The notes under the pieces: generated by a model | What the model was told of the DNA's origin: nothing | What the model saw: the letters and a program-made list of their open reading frames with translations, nothing else | The model's database searches: none | Position numbers and translations under genes: made by a program | Part shown: positions 5,078 through 51,942 of the stretch, piece after piece | Layout of the letters: each line of letters opens with the position of its first letter | Position numbering within the stretch: position 1 is the first letter of the stretch | Origin: Azolla caroliniana | Taxonomy: Eukaryota; Plantae; Polypodiophyta | Length of the DNA: 64,000 bases | Reading direction: 5' to 3' | NCBI GenBank assembly: GCA_043228905.1 | Contig: JBHGNT010000001.1 | Span: 36,952,001 to 37,016,000, forward strand

Positions 5078-8000
5078 ATGGCTTCTCTAGCTTCTGCCGG
5101 AGGGCTAATTCAGCCATTCCATTCTCTCTCGCTTGAGGCAGGAAGCAGAAGAATGTATCAGAGTACGTCCGGTAATGTGGTCAGTATGTTGTCTTCCTCT
5201 TTCGTGGGAGACATATCGTGCCTTGTTACTTCGCCTAACACAATTTCAACAAATGGACAATTATCTTCTTCTTCTTCGTCGAGGGTTTTGCATACCATGT
5301 GTGTTAGAATGGATTCAAACTTTCAGCCTGTACATTTGAATGAAGGCAATTTTCCTCCTTTTGGTGATGATTCATGGAAGAGATCCGCGGTGGCTATGCA
5401 AGAGTATGCTGTTACAGAAAGGGATGTTGACTTATCTATCCAAAGAGGAGTCCCTGGGGATATGTCTGGACAAAACATGTATATTTCATCTGGACAGGGT
5501 GTGCCCGGGAATATGTCCGTGCAAGGTAGTAATTTTGAGCAACCTCGAGCATTGAACAATGGTAGTGATATCACTCTGTTGGGTCTCAAGGCTGAGCTAG
5601 TTGAAGCTCTGAGAAAACGAGGCATCACCCATTTGTTTCCCATCCAGGTATGCAGTTTTGGTTCTTGTTATGTATTTTTGTGGGAACTCTAGCTACAAGT
5701 ATACATATAAACATATCTCTGTATGGGGGCTCTTGTTTGGAGCATATGTGTAATCAGTGCAACCATCATTCATGGAACTAATGGGTCTGTGTTTCACCTA
5801 ACTACAATCCATTAATCTATGATTTTGATAATATGTGTAATAATCTACGTTGGTGGGCGTACATATTGCCCAATTGACACCATAGGCTTATCTCTGGTCT
5901 ATTTACTCCAGTAGTATGTGCTTATGAGCATATGCGAGATCATACATTAATGGAGCTAGTGGGCCTATATCTGCCCTTATTGAATCCAGTACAATAATCA
6001 AACCTTAACAGAGCTAATTGAATTATTGCTGGATTCTGGACTAAGTGCAGTAATGAAGCTACTAGATCTACCTCTGGTTTGGCCCATTGATGTATGATTG
6101 CACAGTTGTGCTTCCCAAAAAAGTACTATTCCTTTAGGTCAGTGGAAACTATAGACTTATCCTTACCTCAGATTATGTAATCCTAGTTTGATTGATATCA
6201 CATTCTAGTGGATAGTGGTTTAAACAACTGATTGGAACATTAAATTGTCACCCATCTATGCATTATAGTTTAACCTTCTGATTATGGCATTAAATCATCC
6301 ATCCATATCCTTTCTGTTTCATTCTTGTGATACAGTTCATGTTGATTTATTGTCATGTTGACAAGTGCAGGATGCAGTTCTCAAACCTGCAGCAGAAGGC
6401 CTTGATCTAATAGGCCGTGCTAGGACAGGAACAGGTAAAACCTTGGCTTTTGGCATACCCATCATTCAGAACCTCTTGGAAGAAAATCAAAATGGCTCAA
6501 GGTATTTTGTTCTATGGCTACAATTAAAATCGAATAATATTTTCTGTGATCCATGGTATATTTAATAATGTGCTGAAGAGGTAATATTACTGTATTTGTA
6601 GTCGCTTCTCTCGAAACCCTCGTGTATTGGTGCTTGCACCAACTAGAGAGTTAGCAGTGCAGGTAGAGAAAGAGTTCATGGAATCAGCACCCGCTTTGTC
6701 TACTTTGTGTGTTTATGGTGGAGTTCCGATTAGTGGTCAACAAAGGAAGTTGCAAAATGGGGTTGATATTGCTGTTGGAACCCCAGGACGTATTATAGAC
6801 TTGATTGAACGAGGCTCCTTAGCACTCAATGAAGTTAGATATCTTGTCCTGGATGAAGCTGATCAGATGCTTGCTATAGGTTTTGCTGAAGACATAGAGA
6901 AAATCTTAGAAAATGTACCTACAAATCGCCAAACTATGTTGTTTTCTGCCACCATGCCATCTTGGGTTTCCCAAATTTCCAGGAAATACTTGAAGAATCC
7001 CTTGATGATTGATCTGGTGAGTTTTTAATGATAATATGTTGACGTTAATGCTATACTCAGCGTACTTGGGTTGGTAGGGGGGTTGTATTGCCTTACAGAT
7101 GAATTTATTTGGTTAGGTTGGAGATTCTAAGGAGAAACTTGCACAAGGAATCAAATTGTTCTCAATGTTGTGTCCACCAACAGCCAAACGCTCTATCCTG
7201 AGTGATCTTATAACTGTAAATTCATATATACACAATCATGTAACCACTTCCATGGATTGAATCTCATTTTTGTAAAGTCTAAACATATCTGGTACCTTTT
7301 TTACAGGTGTATGGAAAGGGTGGAAAGTCTATTGTTTTCACACAAACAAAGAAGGATGCAGATGAAGTTGCTTTGTCAATGAGTCGTATCCTTGGTGCGG
7401 AAGCTTTGCATGGTGATATATCTCAAGCCCAGAGGGAGAAAACTCTCTCTCGCTTCAGAAGTGGGAAGTTCTCAGTATTAATAGCGACTGATGTTGCGGC
7501 TCGAGGATTGGACATCCCAGATGTTGATCTGGTGAGATTATTTCCAAATTTCTTCCCACGATTCTATATGCGTGTCATCACTGGAAAAATTGATAAGATT
7601 AAACACCATGATCACCTAAAAAGTAGATGAGATTCACTTCCCAATTGAAGACCTTGGATATGCTTTATGCCATTGATAGAGTAGCCCTAGCTTTTCTAGG
7701 CACTTGACGATATTAAGGTTATTTGCTAGTGTTCAACCACAAAGGTCACTCTTGATCCCTAGGCTGGTATACTGATCCTAGTGATCTACCATAGATGCTT
7801 GTGTGGTAACAATATCTTGAGGATATTATAGTCCAGCTTTGATATCTTTATATTGCTTTCAGGTTATCCACTATGAGGCACCAAATGATCCCGAAACATT
7901 TGTCCACCGCTCAGGGAGGACAGGACGAGCTGGTAAAGATGGCACAGCCATATTAATACATACAAGTGCTCAGATAAGAACGGTGAAGACAATCGAGAGG

Positions 8001-42041: not shown

Positions 42042-43220
42042 GAAGCGTATCCTGTAATAGGTTTTGAGAAGGATTTTTGCTGATTCCTGAGTATAAAGTG
42101 TTTGCTAACAAACCAAAAACCTTTTTAGATCTCTCTTTCCTAATAAACATTGTCAACAGATATATATAGATAAATCAAAACATACATTTGCAATCCCTTT
42201 TGGTGGTACATACATTTGCAATCCTTTTTTTATGGGACTATCCTAGAACCAATGAAAAAGCTGCAGAAATGAGCTTGATTGTTTTTTTAGAGCAATCCAT
42301 GGAAGGGCAGATTGTAATAAGGGTAGGAGAGATCATACAATAAGGCATACATATTCAAAAACCTCTTCATTAGTTATCATCACCTTCTTTGCTAGTGTCT
42401 TATTACCCTGACTCTGACGCTTCCCCTTTGTCAAATGGCCTTTATACATTTCTATTTATGGCATCAAATCAAAGAGTCTTCGCAAAGAAACTACTATCAA
42501 ACCTTTTTCTTTTAAACTTCCACGTTCTGATTGGTTGTACACGTTCTGAAAATATTCTGAACTTAATATATATAACATTCACGCGTTAAGTTGCTAACTG
42601 TCGGTCATTTTGAAGCAGAAATGTTTATGAAAAATAACAAGATACTAAACTATTACAAATGTATTGGGAGAGAGACATTAGCAAGCATGATGAATAACAA
42701 GTGTCCATTATTCAGTGGGAACTCCCTTTAACTTTTGTTATACTTGTTTATGATCGAATGGAAGTGAAAGCTTTATAAAGAGACGATAAGAATATATGTT
42801 AACCAAGGCAATCAAAGCATGTCCCTACTTAGGAAGTTGGGTTTTGACACTAGTAGCATGCATTTCCTACCTTTCTAATGTTATAATTCTGCTTTCCTTA
42901 ATTATACAAAATGCTTCTTAAGAAGGTGACTTCTTATCATACGGTGATCATTTTCCTCATCGCATGCCACGAATGAAGCTAACTTCTTCTCAAAAAGAGC
43001 TTCTTTTATCCTTTATACTCTCACCAGCAGTTTGGAAATCTCGACCTTCTTCTCCTCCTCCTTTTTGTACAGAACTCATACCTGGTTGGTTGCAGAGCTA
43101 TAATGCTTGTGAAATCTGTTTGTAGCACCCGCCATGTCATATTTTGTTGCTCTGCGATGATTCCCCTGAAGGAAAGCGAAGAAGGAGGAATAGGGTAAAA
43201 GCAGGGTCTTATGGTAAGCT

Positions 43221-43380: not shown

Positions 43381-46300
43381 ACCCACCCATTAGTAAACAG
43401 AGGGATCATTTGGAAATTTCTGAAAACATAGCCCTATTCCGGCCCCCGGGTAAACACACTCTACCTTTCCCTGAACCCCAAAGCTTCAATGTCCTCATAT
43501 TGAAACTAGTCTTCTATAGGGGGAAGGAACAAAGGAGAGCTTCTAGATCAAGTTAAAGTTTTAGGCTTTCAACATTTCTTTGTATGTGTTTCTCTTGTGG
43601 AACACATTTGCTTGGATTTGATGATTGTAGAGTAGTACGTGAATTCAAAATCTAGACTAATGTGGCATTGTGTCATTGGTCATTTAAAAACAGTATGGGG
43701 CATAACGCACCAGTCGGCACAAAAGTTATTCAAGAAAATGAACAATGGAAGTGCAACATATAGTAGCCATGGAAGTTCAATGGATTAGCTTTTCCATCAG
43801 TCCTTTGGGTATCCATAATTCTTGGATTGATGGGTTGGTTTCTGCTAATACTTAGATGAGCCATGCGATTGATATTAGATATCTCATTTCATTTCCTAAC
43901 TAGAATGATGGCATTCATAAAATTATTGTTAGCAATTAGCATTAAAAACACATATCACATGTTGAAAATAGAACTATGGAGTTGGACCTACACTCTTCTA
44001 ATGGGTTCCTCACATTCCTATGATATATTCTCATAATTGTTTGATCCCACTCAAACAAACATTCCATGATGGTCACTTGAAACTTCTCATTCTAAATATT
44101 TAGCCTTGTGGAGAAAGTATTTACTCTAGTTATAAGTGTTGGATTAAGCCATGTATTTATGATTTCTGTACTTCAATAAAATTAAGACAAACAATTGGGG
44201 GAATACCATATTGATCTTTTTATCACTTTGAGTTTATCCCATTGGAGTGAATGACATAATACAACCTATATTGTACTACATGACGCAATGCAAAAATCTA
44301 CCATTTGGAAATTTGTGCATAATCTCCTCTAGGTTTTCGATCAACTCACTTCATAATCATCAATATAGATCACATCTACAAATAGGAAGAATATTTTGTA
44401 AGTTAACCTAAAAACTCATTTACAGACTTCTCACAAAATTCTTACCTGCCATTATAATCCTTATTGATTGTTAATGCTCATCAAGCTTTAACATTTTAAC
44501 AAAATAATTTACATAGCAATTGCCACTAGCCTATTTAGTGAGCCTTGTATTTGTAATTGTTATAAAATATTAGGACCTCCCAATTTGGCGTCTTAAAAGT
44601 AGAATAGCTCTATGCACTCTCAAATGTTAAATTTATCATATTAAATATATTATAACCGTCCAATTCACATAGTTTGTGTAAAACCCTAAAGTTTAAACCT
44701 TAATCCTTGCCCCATAGTTTTCACATGTCAACCTTCCGCTTCATGATATAATAAATAATTTAGTAAATAAACGTAAAATAATATTATTATTAATACCAAT
44801 ATTTTAATTAATTAAAAGAAATAAAATTAAATAATTATGATTACTAAATAATTCGAATAAGATAATATATATACATCCTGACACAATAAATAAGTAAATA
44901 CATAAAATAGTAATAAATAACAATAACGATGATAATAATAATATTAACGAAGAAATAAGAATAATAATAAATTATCGTGCTAAATAATCATATAGTGATA
45001 AATTTAAGTAAATAAACTGAACGTAATGGTAAGAGTTTAATAACAATATTTAATATAAATAAATCATAAGAATTTAAAGAAGATAATAATTATAAAAAAC
45101 AAATTGTTAGTTAATTAATTACCTATAATAATTAATGGTACTAATGACGAATTACCTATCTCTTTGGCATCGACAAATATCAAAGTACACTAAACCAGAC
45201 ATTAACACTGAAATAGCTATACGTAGATCTTTCACACACACAAATACCTACGCAGCACGCTGTTACGAATGCCTAAAACACATTATTCCTGAAAGAACAT
45301 CTAACATCTTGAAACACTATAATAATAATACCTAGCAGACTCGATTCAACCCATCCTCTCTGGTTCAAGTGTCCCAGTCTAATCCACATGCTAAGGGGCC
45401 CGCCCGCATAACTTGGACACGACGACATGGAGTGCGAGGGCTATGTGAGAGGCTCATGTTGGTATTAAATGAGATAAAGTAGGGATATGATGAATAGGCA
45501 TAAGGAAATATGTATGAATAGGAGGGAGGGGGTGGGTGGTGGAAGATGGATGGAGGTGGCAACAGAGTAGGCGGAGGCACAGCAGCAGATTTCCGTGCAG
45601 AGGGTGGGCGGCGGCCCCGCTCGGTTCGACTGGAGCCGAACAGAGCAGCGTTCGACTCCTATACATATTACATAATACATACATACATACTACCTGCTAG
45701 TGCACTGTGCTAGCTAGCTAGCTCAAAGGGGGGTGGGGGGAGCCTTTAACTAGAGTCGAAGGCTCCCTCATTATTTATTTATTATATTTTGTTCTATTCT
45801 TTACTTTCCCAAATTTCAAGTTATATAGGCTCGCGGCCATAGCAAAAACAAAAAGATTTAAGTTTTGATATTTTTGGGCTATCCTCCGGGGCACTGTCTT
45901 GTCTTGTGGACGAGACATTGGTTCCCATGGGCGTCAGTGACACCCTAAATGCCGATTTCGTCAAATTCTTGTAACTTTCTCCTATTGCCTCGGAATTCCC
46001 GTGCCGAAATTTCCAACATGCTCCTTGCTTGATCACGATTAGGTTAAACACGGATTTTGCGCATGATAATTGAAATATAGATTATATTAAAATTTTACAA
46101 GTTCACGAGAGCATGTAAATACAACGAGAAAATCCTCGGCTCCATTACATTGACAGGAATATATTTGTCCTTCTTACCTCACCCTTATTTAACTTATTTT
46201 CTCCTATGCACTCTCTGCATCACGAGAGCGCTCAATCACGAATTAGGTATACGATGTTGCATTTATGGTATCAAAATGTGCATAAAATATACTTGAAGGC

Positions 46301-47255
46301 ATATTTGATGGTGAACATATCACTTAATTTTACATGTTAAGCATATAGTGCAAATTGTGAATACTTAAGACACCACTAAAAAATGTTGAGCCAATAGGTG
46401 TATGCATTATTCACACATATAGTCGTTGTGCTTCGATTCAATAAAAGCATCCCTCTCACGAGGAAGATGCACATCAAGAAAAAACAAGTCCCATGGGTCA
46501 ATATTGCCCTCTCCATGAAAGATAAAAATTCTTTGTGTGTGTGTGTGTGTGTGTGTGTATGGAGCTCTATTAAGCATCTAGCAAGATATAAATCCATGTT
46601 TAACTGATTATATAAGATTAGTAGACCTTTTTTTGCAAATTAAATTAGTAAATTATTTACATGGTTTATGATCGACATCACTATTGCGAATTGTCCATCT
46701 AGAGATGTGCCTTTGTAAATCTACATTTCTTAGCCATGACTATATATAAACTTGATCTTTCTATGTGATAAAGCTAGTTCAAAAAGTCACATTCATGCTT
46801 TTCTTTTGAAAATAATGTAATCTTTGTTAGAAATAATTGAGTTGCTATTCATAAGGTCATCATGAATTTGTTTGCAACTAACTCCTCTTGGACTTATCTT
46901 ATACCATGTTTCAGAACATTTTGCTATGCACATAGCTCCAAGCTCCTATAAGATAATAACAAAATGCGGCGATTGAATGGGACAATCTAAAAGTGAAATA
47001 TATTCGAGAACTAATTGGCCCATGCTTATTTTGAGTACACTATATGACAATACCAAAATGTGAGATTTGTATATCTTTGAAACCAACAAATATTTCTCAT
47101 CTTAGAATATCACTCAATGACAATATTCTTTGAGGTATGGAGAGTATTTGGACTTGTCAAAGTTGTTTTAGAATGCTATGTTAGGCTTGATTATTATAGG
47201 AGAACTATACCAAATGTAGTTAATGAGGACAAAACAATGTTAATATGAGTATTGT

Positions 47256-47470
47256 TGTACTACCATTTTGTTGGCTCCTAGGTTGCATGCACATCGGCAT
47301 TCATCATGGATTCATGTAAACCCCAAATTGCATGAGAGTGTAAGCGGGTGTACTACATCCATTATGGAGTACAAACGAATCTCAAGTTTTCACGAAAGAA
47401 AGAATAAAATAATGAAACAAAAGTTGTACTACAATTTGGTCGTGTACTACTAAGGTGAATGTCTATATAG
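47256..47470 (+). promoter_or_regulatory. Cluster of five GTAC cores (four as TGTACTAC) plus a TATA-like box; candidate copper-response elements
   Basis: GTAC at 47257, 47350, 47369, 47426 and 47444; CTATATAG at 47463, about 120 bp before the ATG at 47588. Confidence 0.7.
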
Positions 47471-47518: not shown

Positions 47519-47549
<31 letters not shown>

Positions 47550-47587: not shown

Positions 47588-48735
47588 ATGTCAGGTTGTG
47601 GAAATTCAAGTTGTTCTTGTGGCTCATCTTGCCAATGTGGGAGTGGGTGCAGGTGAAGTTCCCACACAACATTTTAACAATATTGCTTGCATACTTGAGT
47701 TAAAACTCTCTTGATCACGCTAACAAGGCTTCATTCTCCCAATATTTATCATGTTAAGTGTTTACACGATTTTCTCTTCCCCATCAGGATCATCATTGCC
47801 CTACAACTTTATTGGCTTTTTGAGTTAGGAGAAGTGAGGTAACAATTTGTACCATTTTAAAAAAGAGTATATCCTCAAATCACCACCATTAATGATAAAT
47901 GTGGGTTCAAAAGTCCACTACTACCACACTCTCTTGGCTTTAGGGTTTCCATGAGCTTGGCTCCTAGTGTGTCACTTTCGTTTTGTAAATGAGAGATAGG
48001 GAGTGCTGAACTTTTGGGGGGAATCGATCCATGCAATTCACATTGTGCTACAATGGGTTTAAGTAAGCCTTTGTCTTCCTAACTAAATCTGGAATGTCCA
48101 CCCATTAGAAGGGGCCAAACCTACTAGACTATTATGATGCTTCGCAAAGCCTAGCAGTGAGATCTATGTACCTAACTACTGTCGACCAACCATAGCGAAA
48201 CCCTTAATGTCTACTGTGCTTAGTGACCATGCCAAAGTACTATGCATAGCCAGATTGACCAGACAAAGGCTGAGCGAGATCAATCAACATTGCGCCAACT
48301 CACGAAATTTACGCATATTTGATCAATCACGTGGATTTGAGTGGTTAATTTCTATTTTATTCAATCTTCAATTGAATGTGAGCTAATCTTAATTATGTGA
48401 TCCATTTGTTAAAGGTGCGGGAAGAGAAGCATGGAGGATGAAATAAGCGTCTTATCCCTCTATCCACTGATCAATTATAACAGCATTGGCCAATGGTAAG
48501 GACAACATTAAACTGGTCACTATAATTAGTAGGCATGATTACTGATCCTCTCACTAAAGGATCAAGTCAGGGGTTCAAGTCCTACTTATACAATACAATC
48601 CACGATTAATCCTCTATTGCTCTTTGTTTTTCTGTGTGAAATCACAGCTTCGATGCCAATGCTAATAATAGGCGTGTCCTTCTTGATGGAAGCTTTGCAT
48701 TTCATGGAGGATTAGTCTCTGCCGCAGGAATATGA
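47588..48735 (+). CDS. Metallothionein-like protein, 77 aa, N-terminal Cys cluster only. Exons 47588-47652, 48415-48495, 48648-48735
   Basis: Spliced product: MSGCGNSSCSCGSSCQCGSGCRCGKRSMEDEISVLSLYPLINYNSIGQCFDANANNRRVLLDGSFAFHGGLVSAAGI*. Donors AG|GTGAAG and TG|GTAAGG, acceptors AAAG and CACAG; AATAAA at about 48827. Exon 1 is a clear plant MT domain; exon 3 is less certain. Confidence 0.8.
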
Positions 48736-49735
48736 ATGAAAGAGAGAAAGAGGGAGACTTTATCATTATACCTATCTTCATAAACCTCGTGTTCATAGTT
48801 TCCATTGTGTAACCAACCACACTTTGAATAAATAAATACTTGTAATCATGCTAGAGATTGTGTTGTATTCTCGGGTATGAATTGTAATGTTATGGTCATT
48901 GCCTTCTACTCTAATCTTCCTATCATTGCCTTTTTGGTGTGTTTATGTGTCATAATAGAGAGAGAGAGAGAGAGAGAGATGCAAAGAGGATATAGTTTTG
49001 TCATATTCAAGTGGGGCCAAATATGAATTGTTGAACCAAAGTGAAACATTTTTTCATTTTTGTGTATGAAATTGATCAATGGCTCTCAACATTCAATGGA
49101 TACATCATGAATCATGGCTTCATATATGCACAAAATGTTTTCCTATCGGATCGATTAAAACATATTGAGGCATTAAGAACTGTTTGAATAAGCTTCTCTA
49201 CGCATCTATGCTCTTCTTGCCTCTATTCTCAAATTGTCATATTTAGTGATCATTAACCTCTTTGCATATTCTTATGGCCTCTCTTGCCAATTTGGGATCT
49301 ATGGCAAATTTGGAGTGTGAGAAATTGGTTCTTGTTTTGTGGTCTCCACGTTGAACCATGTAATGTTGTCCATAGGCTGAAAGGAATTTTTATTTGGTAG
49401 CATGTGCGTGCGATTGAGCTCAACAAGAACCTTGTCTCTAGAAGAGTGCCTTTATGTCAAGAAATCTTCGATTGTTCTCCTCAATCATGAGGATCCTCCC
49501 ATTTGTATGAGGTGACAAGGGGTTTTCAGTGTTGTTTTGTTACCATGTATATTTTTACAGAAAAGAGAGAGATGATGAGATATTAAGGTCTGTAAAGACA
49601 AACGTGACCCATTAAAGTGCCAATTATTACAAAGCACTCCCTTCAAAGCCTAGATGAGGGGATATTTAGATGCCAAAACAAAAACGCAATGTAAAAACTA
49701 CATGGAATGCATCATTTAGATCTTCCATTTGTTTT

Positions 49736-50758
49736 TTTTATAATTTATTTATTTAAACTACACCATAGTTTCCATTACCAATCCAAAAAGCATATACAAG
49801 ACATATAATAATACAATGTAGTGGCGGGTAAGATATCCCCCTTTATGTCATACGTGACACCAACCTCCACCTATGGAGGAAAAAACCATCGTGGGGGTAC
49901 ATATTGCCAATCCATTTTCTCATTTCTCTCCACAAAAACTAACAAATCCTTCCATTTGCCTTTAAAGGATTGTTGTTTCATAAAAATCCGATCTTCATTA
50001 CTTGTGAAGGAGTCATATTGTCATTTTAAAATTGAGATAAACATCGACCAAATTTCCTTCACACAATGAATAGGATTTTGCTTTATTTGCTGAAACACAT
50101 TTTTGCATCGATCTATCCAAATATTCCATAGAACCACCGATGATATCGTAGCCCATATTGTAGCATCCACATTCAACCGATTTGAGCTTGAGTATGGTAT
50201 GTCCTTAACTCGCCTTCCCCTAGTTTGAAGGGTAAATAGTATCTTTTCCCTTTCATAATTATGCTTATCCACATTTACGTCCATCCAAAAGACATTTCCT
50301 CATGTAATCACATTAGGTCCATATGCAACATCAATGAGACGCAACATACGTTTCCAAACAGAACATGCGGCCATACAGTTCCATAAGACATGTTGCATTG
50401 ATTCCAATTGAAGCCCACAAAAAGAGCAAGTTTTGGTTCCCTCTTCCCAATGCATCCATTCCAAGGCTAGAAGTGCATAGTGGACACATAACCATCTAAA
50501 TGTAATGCTTTTGCGAGGAATATGTAGAGCCCATAACCATTTCCAAAATGCCAATACTGAATGCATAGGAATATTATTATTTAACCATACCTTAGCTGCA
50601 ACTGGCATAACTGGATTCCTCCTTTGTTGGAATTCCCTACCTGTCAGGAGTAGTACTAAGACAAAGAAGTACTATTAGGAACAATACTAAAACAGAGACG
50701 GAATTAGTACTAAAAGATGAGGATTAGTACTAAGGGAGGTGTAGAACTCTCCAGAGAA

Positions 50759-50844
<86 letters not shown>

Positions 50845-51942
50845 GATAACAAAAGATATATGTTATGTTAAGGGAATATACAATAGTAGCTAAGAGGCTT
50901 AAGACTGGCGTTGAACTAATTTGGTTCGAAATAATGCCTTGTGCCTTCTTTTCTAGTGTTCTTAGGAGTACTGAAGTTTCTAGAATGTTCCAAAGAAATT
51001 TGGAATATACATCAATTTTCTATAGTAAAACTTAAATGAAAATAATATTCTTTGTATTACAACATATAGTCTAATGGTCAAGAGCTTGACCCATGTAACA
51101 TAAGGTCATGGGTTTGAGTCTTGCCATATCATGACATTTTTCCCTCTTTAAAACGACGAGTGTCACGAGTCGTTTTGGATTGAGGACCCGGTTTGTTTGG
51201 ATATCGACGATGGAAGTCTAAGCCGGTTTGTCTCTCGAGAGTTCTACACCTCCCTTAGTACTAATTCCTTCTCTGTTTTAGTATTGTTCCTGATAGTACT
51301 TCTCTGTCTTAGTACTGCTCCTGACAATTTGAACCGATTTGGTTCGAAATAATGCCTTGTGCCTCCTTTTATAGTGTTCTCAGGAGTACTCTTGAAGTTT
51401 CTAGAATGTTCTAGAGAAAAATGGAATATACACTAATTTTCTGTAGTAAAACTTAAATGAAAATAATATCTTTTGTATTACAATATATGGTCTAATGGTC
51501 AAGAGCTTGGCCCATGTAACATAAGGTTATGGGTTCGAGTCTTGCCATATCATGACACTACCTAATTTACAGAGTATGTAGTCAAAGAAAGAAATCATCT
51601 TATTATTAACATCTCTCCCCCACCATTCCGTCGGATCCCAAAATATCCCATAAAGGGTTTACTTTTTCAGGATGGGGATCAATAATACATATTTTCCCTG
51701 TTTTTGCTACCACCCTAATAGGCTTCCATTCAACTAAATTGAGAAGATCATCCTCCATAGAGACCCATTGCAATTTTCCCTCCGAAACTATTATATATGA
51801 TAAGAAGGATTCATTAGATGTATAAGCTCTTGCTCCAATCAAGACATTAAAAGAAGAGAATGTCCCGTACCATACATGGTTTGAATTAAAAGAAGAAGGC
51901 AAAATCCTATTACAAGCATTACTTATCGCTTGGAACATTAAG
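49736..51942 (-). mobile_element. 5'-truncated L1-type LINE (ORF2 C-terminus, zf-RVT), interrupted by an LTR element
   Basis: FWKWLWALHIPRK..FRWL, CSFCGLQLESMQHVLWNC..ACSVW, LWNIWIDRCKNVF; A-rich tail near 49736-49755. Perfect 18-bp TSD AGATCTTCCATTTGTTTT at 49718-49735 and 51943-51960. Confidence 0.9.
50642..51557 (-). mobile_element. Internally deleted, rearranged LTR retroelement (probably Gypsy-type), 916 bp
   Basis: TGTCA...TGACA termini; 5-bp TSD CTACC at 50637-50641 and 51558-51562. Complete LTR 50642-51136; minus-strand PPT AAAGAGGGAAAAA at 51137-51149. The second LTR is present as a direct piece (51329-51557, matching 50911-51136) and an inverted piece (51231-51326, matching 50642-50757). 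Confidence 0.9.

What the first reader, a model, noticed from the sequence alone, without database searches (positions are those of the whole stretch)
47256..47470. Dense TGTACTAC array suggests this MT-like gene is switched on by copper deficiency
Seen: four exact TGTACTAC (47256, 47349, 47425, 47443) and a fifth, reverse-strand TGTACTCC (core 47369) within about 195 bp abutting the TATA-like box. Their flanks differ, so this is not a tandem duplication. Known: clustered GTAC cores are bound by the SBP-domain factors CRR1 (Chlamydomonas) and SPL7 (Arabidopsis) and activate genes under low Cu, whereas MTs are classically induced by metal excess. Inference: together with the truncated protein, this may be an undescribed Cu-economy module, such as a low-capacity Cu carrier made when Cu is scarce, or a host transcript for a Cu-regulated RNA.
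Basis: partly seen in the sequence, partly recalled or inferred. Interest (0 to 1): 0.72.

Follow-up and report, generated by a model that had tools for sequence, protein, structure and literature searches.

The report
Copper-starvation switch on fern metallothionein gene
A water fern has a tight cluster of copper-deficiency switch motifs directly in front of a spliced gene for a metallothionein with only one cysteine cluster, so this metal-binding protein is likely made when copper is scarce rather than in excess, much as reported for one Arabidopsis metallothionein.

Summary
Four TGTACTAC and one reverse TGTACTCC lie 20-207 bp before a TATA-like box. Four match GTACTRC, the published SPL7 low-copper motif. 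None of 3000 background 200-bp tiles held more than two. The array is single-copy and not shown to derive from the genome's GTAC-rich repeat.

The genome is Azolla-like and has two SPL7-type genes. The same motif clusters at 3 of 5 COPT promoters, a ferric-reductase gene pair and a Cu-ATPase intron. It is absent from 11 of 11 other metallothionein promoters and from 4 of 4 Fe/Mn-SOD promoters.

The gene is spliced in contigs of four runs. It encodes 77 aa: one 7-cysteine cluster plus a cysteine-poor tail of unproven function. No microRNA-like hairpin was found.

Best reading: a likely direct SPL7-type target switched on by low copper, whose product would buffer or carry Cu(I). Binding, direction of regulation and metal binding are untested. 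It is not an undescribed module: Arabidopsis MT1C rises 5.2-fold under copper deficiency and needs SPL7 to do so. What is new is the fern setting and the one-cluster protein.

The parts
47256..47263 (+). GTACTRC site 1 (TGTACTAC), core 207 bp before the TATA-like box
47349..47356 (+). GTACTRC site 2
47366..47373 (-). TGTACTCC site: TGTACT class, not GTACTRC
   Evidence: TGTACT/AGTACA is noted as a high-affinity SPL7 site
47425..47432 (+). GTACTRC site 3
47443..47450 (+). GTACTRC site 4, core 20 bp before the TATA-like box
47034..47039 (-). distal sixth GTAC core (TGTACT on the minus strand)
47462..47469 (+). TATA-like box; function inferred, transcription start not mapped
   Evidence: contigs cannot show starts
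47519..47546 (+). GA repeat in the likely 5' UTR
47588..47652 (+). coding exon 1: ATG and six cysteines of the N-terminal metallothionein cluster
   Evidence: (Pfam MT families, E 0.11-0.19, below cut-off)
47653..48414 (+). intron 1, 762 nt, GT..AG, phase 2; no microRNA-like hairpin
   Evidence: joint seen in contigs of 4 of 4 runs
48415..48495 (+). exon 2: seventh cysteine (CGKRS motif as in paralogues) and spacer
48496..48647 (+). intron 2, 152 nt, GT..AG, phase 2
   Evidence: joint seen in contigs of 4 of 4 runs
48648..48735 (+). coding part of exon 3: cysteine-free tail and stop; another frame at its start holds a Cys-x-Cys-stop resembling the paralogues' ends
48736..48914 (+). 3' UTR covered by contigs, with AATAAA near 48827

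Best explanation
The array is likely a copper-response element cluster through which an SPL7-type factor would switch on this spliced, one-cluster metallothionein gene when copper is scarce, and the 7-cysteine cluster would then buffer or carry Cu(I) brought in by COPT/FRO uptake. Shown: the motifs and their position, the exon structure and spliced transcripts, SPL7-type genes in the genome, the same motif at COPT, FRO and Cu-ATPase genes, and its absence at other MT promoters. Inferred: SPL7 binding, activation under low copper, translation, Cu(I) binding (about 4-5 ions, by analogy with fungal 7-Cys units) and the carrier role. The tail is probably a frameshifted relic of the old last exon and 3' UTR with little role of its own (inferred).
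For: (1) Four sites equal GTACTRC, the motif enriched at SPL7-activated low-Cu targets; SPL7 peaks lie mostly 200-20 bp before the start, and top targets carry one or two such sites. (2) Rarity. (3) A genome-wide scan for paired TGTACTRC gave 60 matches and returned, unprompted, a COPT promoter, two FRO promoters, a Cu-ATPase intron and a bHLH promoter. (4) COPT genes found by Pfam: 3 of 5 have 2-3 GTACTRC within 421 bp of the ATG. Other MT genes: 0 of 11 have any in 600 bp (Fisher p=0.018, copies not independent). (5) Two SBP genes match SPL7 best (61-65 bits against at most 42 for other SPLs); a control SBP gene ranks SPL7 last. (6) Both splice joints occur in contigs of 4 of 4 runs, the stop is in the last exon, and a second sequence type about 91% alike keeps the frame. 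(7) Precedent: Arabidopsis MT1C goes from 152 to 786 under -Cu, but 116 to 136 in spl7-1. (8) 7-Cys units are complete Cu-thioneins in fungi.
Against: No expression data with and without copper, no binding data, and no promoter from a related species could be obtained. None of 3 FeSOD-type genes or the MnSOD-type gene has GTACTRC near its start, although FSD1 is the top SPL7 target in Arabidopsis. The other four-site array outside the minisatellite lies in an intron of an HMA4/HMA5-type Cu-ATPase, a class linked to copper excess; Arabidopsis HMA5 is unchanged under -Cu (0.93). GTACTRC clusters are common in a dispersed repeat, and most paired-motif loci had no copper gene. Wheat TaSPL7/13, compared there with AtSPL9/15, also prefer GTACTAC. 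SPL7 also has 157 dependent down-regulated genes. Constraint on the tail is inconclusive (omega 0.39-0.72, p 0.10-0.35). The cysteine spacing differs from the Neurospora pattern.
Confidence: 0.62

Rival explanations
1. The low-copper control is real, but the product is not a copper carrier: either it scavenges Cd, Zn or reactive oxygen during high-affinity uptake, or it is a decaying MT whose promoter has outlived its protein.
For: The downstream cysteine clusters are gone. The tail has no relatives beyond one near-identical gene call and shows no significant purifying selection. An out-of-frame Cys-x-Cys-stop at the start of exon 3 matches a paralogue's end at 12 of 12 nt.
Against: The frame, both introns and the stop position are kept in two sequence types about 9% apart, and no difference from the window was listed in exon 1 in any of the four runs.
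Confidence: 0.14
2. The array is bound by an SBP factor with the opposite output: repressed in low copper and on in excess, like classical MTs and Cu-export ATPases.
For: A matching four-site array lies in a Cu-ATPase intron. Arabidopsis MT1a, 2a, 2b and 3 are induced by copper, and MT1A and MT2A fall in Cu-deficient opt3 leaves. SPL7-dependent repression exists.
Against: GTACTRC was enriched among activated targets. The same motif marks COPT and FRO uptake genes here, and the canonical MT paralogues lack it.
Confidence: 0.09
3. Moss-type logic: a clade-II SBP factor binds GTACT under high copper and represses, so the gene is still higher in low copper but by release from repression.
For: PpSBP2 represses FeSOD through GTACT motifs under high Cu. 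All five sites contain GTACT, and the genome has at least 13 SBP genes.
Against: SPL7-type genes are present, and the flanks match the SPL7 activation motif.
Confidence: 0.07
4. The sites serve a developmental SPL factor unrelated to copper.
For: All SPLs share the GTAC core; wheat TaSPL7/13 prefer GTACTAC and AtSPL15 can prefer TGTACT.
Against: Most Arabidopsis developmental SPLs prefer GTACGG, which none of the five sites has. The motif tracks copper-uptake genes in this genome.
Confidence: 0.04
5. The array is a chance cluster or a relic of the GTAC-rich minisatellite, or the transcript mainly hosts a small RNA.
For: A dispersed repeat carries many TGTACTAC, including pairs with the same 18-nt spacing as sites 3 and 4.
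Against: The promoter is single-copy. Its alignment to five repeat copies is no better than motif-preserving shuffles (p 0.13-0.38). Rfam gave no hit of note, and the best MFEI was 0.66.
Confidence: 0.04

Closest known systems
Arabidopsis MT1C (AT1G07610), an SPL7/CITF1-dependent, Cu-deficiency-induced metallothionein (PMC9266912)
   Same: A metallothionein placed in the low-copper regulon together with COPT and FRO genes.
   Different: There induction is measured (5.2-fold), but the passages I read show no direct binding to its promoter. Here a dense promoter array is seen but induction is unmeasured. This protein has one cysteine cluster and a cysteine-poor tail. Orthology was not tested; independent recruitment is inferred.
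SPL7/CRR1/OsSPL9 copper-response element arrays (FSD1, CITF1, MIR398, MIR408, COPT2, FRO4/5 promoters)
   Same: Clustered GTAC cores with GTACTRC flanks within about 200 bp of the start.
   Different: Four GTACTRC against one or two in the tabulated Arabidopsis targets. This is a fern, for which I found no such description. FeSOD promoters here lack the array.
Azolla filiculoides metallothionein-like protein 2 (Q8S3M2) and its relatives in this genome
   Same: Cysteine-rich N-terminus, CGKRS motif after a phase-2 intron, three-exon layout with a phase-2 second intron.
   Different: The C-terminal cysteine cluster is absent here, and the relatives' promoters have no GTACTRC.
Fungal 7-Cys Cu-thioneins (Neurospora, Agaricus; Cryptococcus repeat units; PMC4755600)
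   Same: Seven cysteines within about 25 residues, enough for a Cu5-type cluster in those proteins.
   Different: Different cysteine spacing, a 54-residue extension, and no homology shown. This is a works-like comparison only.

Membership tests
SPL7/CRR1 copper-deficiency regulon | Several GTAC cores with GTACTRC flanks close to the transcription start | tested here: met
   the start is inferred from the TATA-like box
SPL7/CRR1 copper-deficiency regulon | An SPL7-type SBP factor in the genome | tested here: met
   two genes with best PDB match SPL7 and the RxSxKL-x4-P-x3-P signature downstream; the IRPGC pentapeptide itself was not found in the 10 kb read
SPL7/CRR1 copper-deficiency regulon | The same motif at known-type targets in the same genome | tested here: inconclusive
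   met at 3 of 5 COPT and 2 FRO copies; not met at 3 FeSOD-type genes; no MIR408 recognised
SPL7/CRR1 copper-deficiency regulon | Induction under low Cu that needs the GTAC cores and the factor | not testable with these tools
   only assembled contigs without growth conditions were available
Plant metallothioneins (Pfam PF01439, types 1-3) | N-terminal cysteine cluster with Cys-x-Cys motifs | tested here: met
   Cys at 4, 9, 11, 15, 17, 21, 23; Pfam hits on exon 1 alone are below cut-off
Plant metallothioneins (Pfam PF01439, types 1-3) | C-terminal cysteine cluster after a spacer | tested here: not met
   the spliced frame has one further Cys (49) and none in the last 28 residues; MT-derived, not a canonical member
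Plant metallothioneins (Pfam PF01439, types 1-3) | Shared exon layout with family members | tested here: met
   phase-2 introns at matching places in two paralogues
Plant metallothioneins (Pfam PF01439, types 1-3) | Metal-thiolate cluster formation | not testable with these tools
   needs recombinant protein
Copper microRNA host transcript | Long stable hairpin or known MIR family in the transcript or introns | tested here: not met
   Rfam: one hit, E 0.71, outside the gene; best MFEI 0.66; small-RNA reads were not available

The most novel reading that the evidence does not exclude
This fern has split its multi-cluster metallothionein into complementary halves. This N-cluster-only gene has been wired directly to SPL7 as a dedicated low-copper Cu(I) shuttle between COPT/FRO uptake and a co-regulated Cu-ATPase, with a frameshift-born tail as a new docking piece. 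Seven copies that kept only the downstream clusters carry no SPL7 site. That would be convergent with Arabidopsis MT1C and would show metallothioneins repeatedly recruited as scarcity-mode copper carriers.
Probability: 0.18. Interest if true: 0.68.

Novelty: new variant of a known kind. Interest (0 to 1): 0.42.

Why it matters
What metallothioneins do when copper is scarce is open: they are textbook excess-metal buffers, yet Arabidopsis MT1C and rice MTs depend on SPL7/OsSPL9. This locus offers a clean test, a compact promoter with four consensus sites on one MT family member, against 11 paralogue promoters with none. It also gives a candidate list for the copper-deficiency regulon of a fern used in phytoremediation and as green manure (own knowledge): COPT, FRO, Cu-ATPase, bHLH and this gene, apparently without the FeSOD arm.

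Tried and rejected
Bare GTAC density is not significant (p=0.116) and was rejected as the signal. My first exon borders were off by one, corrected and matched by the joints. Repeat origin of the array was rejected. MicroRNA host: no support. The MIR408 genome search gave only low-complexity hits, 0 over cut-off, so the microRNA arm of the regulon is unassessed. No RNA holder is on record; the runs are contigs guessed to be RNA, and their depth was not used to rank genes. Runs X5 and X6 align to neighbouring genes only at about 80-85%, and X7 laid nothing, so their lack of this gene says nothing. Protein searches found no full-length orthologue. The 2234-aa Ig-repeat hit (E 7.8e-4) was rejected as chance. 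The ESM Atlas best score was 0.78, a lead only. No structure was predicted. The MT pattern scans were swamped by simple repeats and listed only the first 100 places, so the MT family count is a lower bound. The reversed-pattern controls exceeded the real counts (194 against 60; 1316 against 736), so paired motifs are not enriched genome-wide. Bernal 2012 and Yamasaki 2009 were not held, and the supplement of PMC9516184 was unreadable; these may list further SPL7-bound MT genes. Earlier-finding look-ups gave nothing that bears on this locus.

Full report
Observation. TGTACTAC stands at 47256, 47349, 47425 and 47443, four of six matches in the window (shuffle mean 1.27; 0 of 100 shuffles reached six). 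A fifth core at 47369 reads TGTACTCC on the minus strand. The cores lie 207 to 20 bp before a TATA-like box at 47462. Five plain GTAC in 200 bp is ordinary here (permutation p=0.116), whereas four GTACTRC is not (p=0.00015). GTACTRC was not fitted to these data: it is the motif enriched at genes that SPL7 binds and activates under low copper, with peaks mostly 200-20 bp before the start (PMC9516184; passages and first part of section 11). In 60 evenly spaced 10-kb stretches the rate was 0.105 per kb, and 0 of 3000 200-bp tiles held three or more. A Poisson estimate gives 0.05-0.2 such four-site clusters genome-wide outside repeats.

The gene. Coding exons are 47588-47652, 48415-48495 and 48648-48735. 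Both GT..AG joints occur in contigs of 4 of 4 runs laid; these runs are only guessed to be RNA and carry no conditions. The frame gives 77 aa with Cys at 4, 9, 11, 15, 17, 21, 23 and 49, and the stop is in the last exon. Two paralogues share the CGKRS motif and both phase-2 introns. A paralogue's last exon is 75% identical to Azolla filiculoides metallothionein-like protein 2; with 22 large contigs in 523 Mb this points to an Azolla-like water fern (inference). The protein is thus MT-derived but fails the C-terminal-cluster test. The tail found two hits among 1.84 billion representatives: a near-identical gene call and a chance hit. Two runs hold a second sequence type about 91% alike with frame and stop position kept. 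Of 12 listed differences in exons 2-3, 7 change a residue and 5 do not; 6 more were unlisted, so omega lies between 0.39 and 0.72 and is not significant. Another frame at the start of exon 3 reads Cys-x-Cys-stop, matching a paralogue's end at 12 of 12 nt. Such a triplet is expected 0.027 times in 450 nt (noticed after the fact). I infer that the tail is a frameshifted relic.

Is the motif a copper signal in this genome? A genome-wide scan for two TGTACTRC within 34 nt gave 60 matches. Twenty-one belong, by matched sequence, to one GTAC-rich minisatellite, of which three copies were ranked and two read. The other 39 fall in the window, 34 fetched loci, and 2 unfetched duplicates of fetched matches. 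I scanned 139 of 466 frames from 19 loci plus 2 of the 466 counted twice in my list, 141 in all, and 109 of 118 frames from 10 loci. One locus was a copy of another, and four were not scanned. Hits: a COPT promoter, two ferric-reductase promoters, an intron of an HMA4/HMA5-type Cu-ATPase and a bHLH promoter; most other loci showed retroelements, unrelated genes or nothing. Of the 35 non-minisatellite loci, 7 have three or more GTACTRC in 250 bp: this gene and the Cu-ATPase (4 each), then the COPT, the bHLH, a site 1.6 kb before a hemerythrin-domain gene, and two unassigned. As a non-circular test, COPT genes were found by Pfam: 3 of 5 have 2-3 GTACTRC within 421 bp of the ATG, against 0 of 11 other MT promoters (p=0.018, though 7 are recent copies). 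Against this, 0 of 3 FeSOD-type genes and the MnSOD-type gene show an array. Two of 13 SBP first exons match SPL7 best, and a control ranks it last.

Other origins. The promoter is single-copy and aligns to five minisatellite copies no better than motif-preserving shuffles (p 0.13-0.38). Rfam gave nothing in the gene, and no window folded like a microRNA precursor (best MFEI 0.66).

Mechanism. Most likely (0.62) an SPL7-type factor occupies the array under low copper and activates the gene with COPT and FRO, and the 7-Cys cluster holds a few Cu(I) to buffer and pass on the influx. Fungal 7-Cys units form Cu5 clusters (PMC4755600, passages), and Arabidopsis MTs redistribute copper to sinks (PMC4859090, passages). 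Binding, direction, translation and metal preference are all inferred. Rivals: same control but a non-copper or decaying product (0.14); opposite sign (0.09), which the Cu-ATPase array, Cu-induced MTs and lower MT1A/MT2A in Cu-deficient leaves (10.1101/2021.07.30.454504, passages) keep alive; moss-type repression by a clade-II factor (PMC3617394, passages; 0.07); a developmental SPL (PMC11429892, passages; 0.04); chance, repeat or RNA host (0.04).

Comparison with what is known. The regulatory idea has precedent. In PMC9266912 (passages, section 8 and rows of Table S1; file cut when stored) Arabidopsis MT1C goes from 152 to 786 under -Cu, but 116 to 136 in spl7-1 and 122 to 81 in citf1-1. In PMC13222354 (passages and section 10) rice spl9ko lowers several metallothioneins. 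Ten searches showed no paper on an SPL7 regulon or a GTAC-array MT in Azolla or ferns; most results were seen as listings only, and 'Azolla, copper, SPL7' gave two reviews. Passages were also read in PMC4158090, PMC12722077, PMC12430517 and PMC6600651. Two key SPL7 papers and one supplement could not be read and may name more SPL7-bound MTs.

Verdict. The feature is real and probably functional. It is a new variant of a known kind: a fern MT-derived gene with one cysteine cluster under a dense SPL7-type array. Interest 0.42, held down by the MT1C precedent and the lack of copper-response data, and held up by the clean within-genome contrast and easy tests.

Noticed in passing
L074:4842-5026 (G000:C10, near 22179500): Four TGTACTAC plus two more GTAC cores inside an intron of an HMA4/HMA5-type Cu-ATPase gene; none seen in the 1.5 kb before its long first exon.
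   Followed up: partly
L070:4903-5025 and L071:4948-5070 (G000:C3): Duplicated ferric-reductase genes, each with six GTAC cores (two GTACTRC) about 200-330 bp before the likely start: candidate FRO4/5 equivalents.
   Followed up: partly
L075:4770-4980 (G000:C15): bHLH gene with three GTACTRC next to several CACGTG boxes; the tandem neighbour upstream lacks the motif. A possible copper-iron crosstalk regulator.
   Followed up: partly
L090-L094, L096, L097 (G000:C8 and C19): Seven MT copies whose first exon has lost the N-terminal cysteine cluster but whose last exon keeps two clusters: the mirror image of the window's gene. Splicing not verified.
   Followed up: partly
L098 (G000:C2, near 1730600): A type-2-like MT gene whose predicted third exon also appears cysteine-poor (read by eye) and whose promoter has no GTAC.
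   Followed up: no
L181-L183 and many other places: A dispersed minisatellite rich in GTACTAC, with many copies genome-wide; it could soak up SBP factors unless methylated.
   Followed up: partly
window 48461: The window has T (Tyr38); all four runs read C (His) and the second sequence type reads G. An allele or an assembly error; His could add a metal ligand.
   Followed up: no
window 42665-43167 and 45331-45738, minus strand: A spliced transcript in one run (CT..AC joint), head-to-head with the MT gene and about 1.4 kb from the array, with a TATA-like box near 45827; no frame over 77 aa and no Rfam hit of note.
   Followed up: partly
window 50650-51560: A repeated element with inverted GTAC-containing ends around a long GA tract; high copy in a more distant run.
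   Followed up: no
L137:4903-4970 and 6145-7597 (G000:C6): Three GTACTRC about 1.6 kb before a small hemerythrin-domain gene.
   Followed up: no
runs X1 and X4, window 48413-48797: Two transcript types about 91% alike at similar depth in one run: a hybrid, polyploid or mixed sample; the genome holds only one copy.
   Followed up: partly
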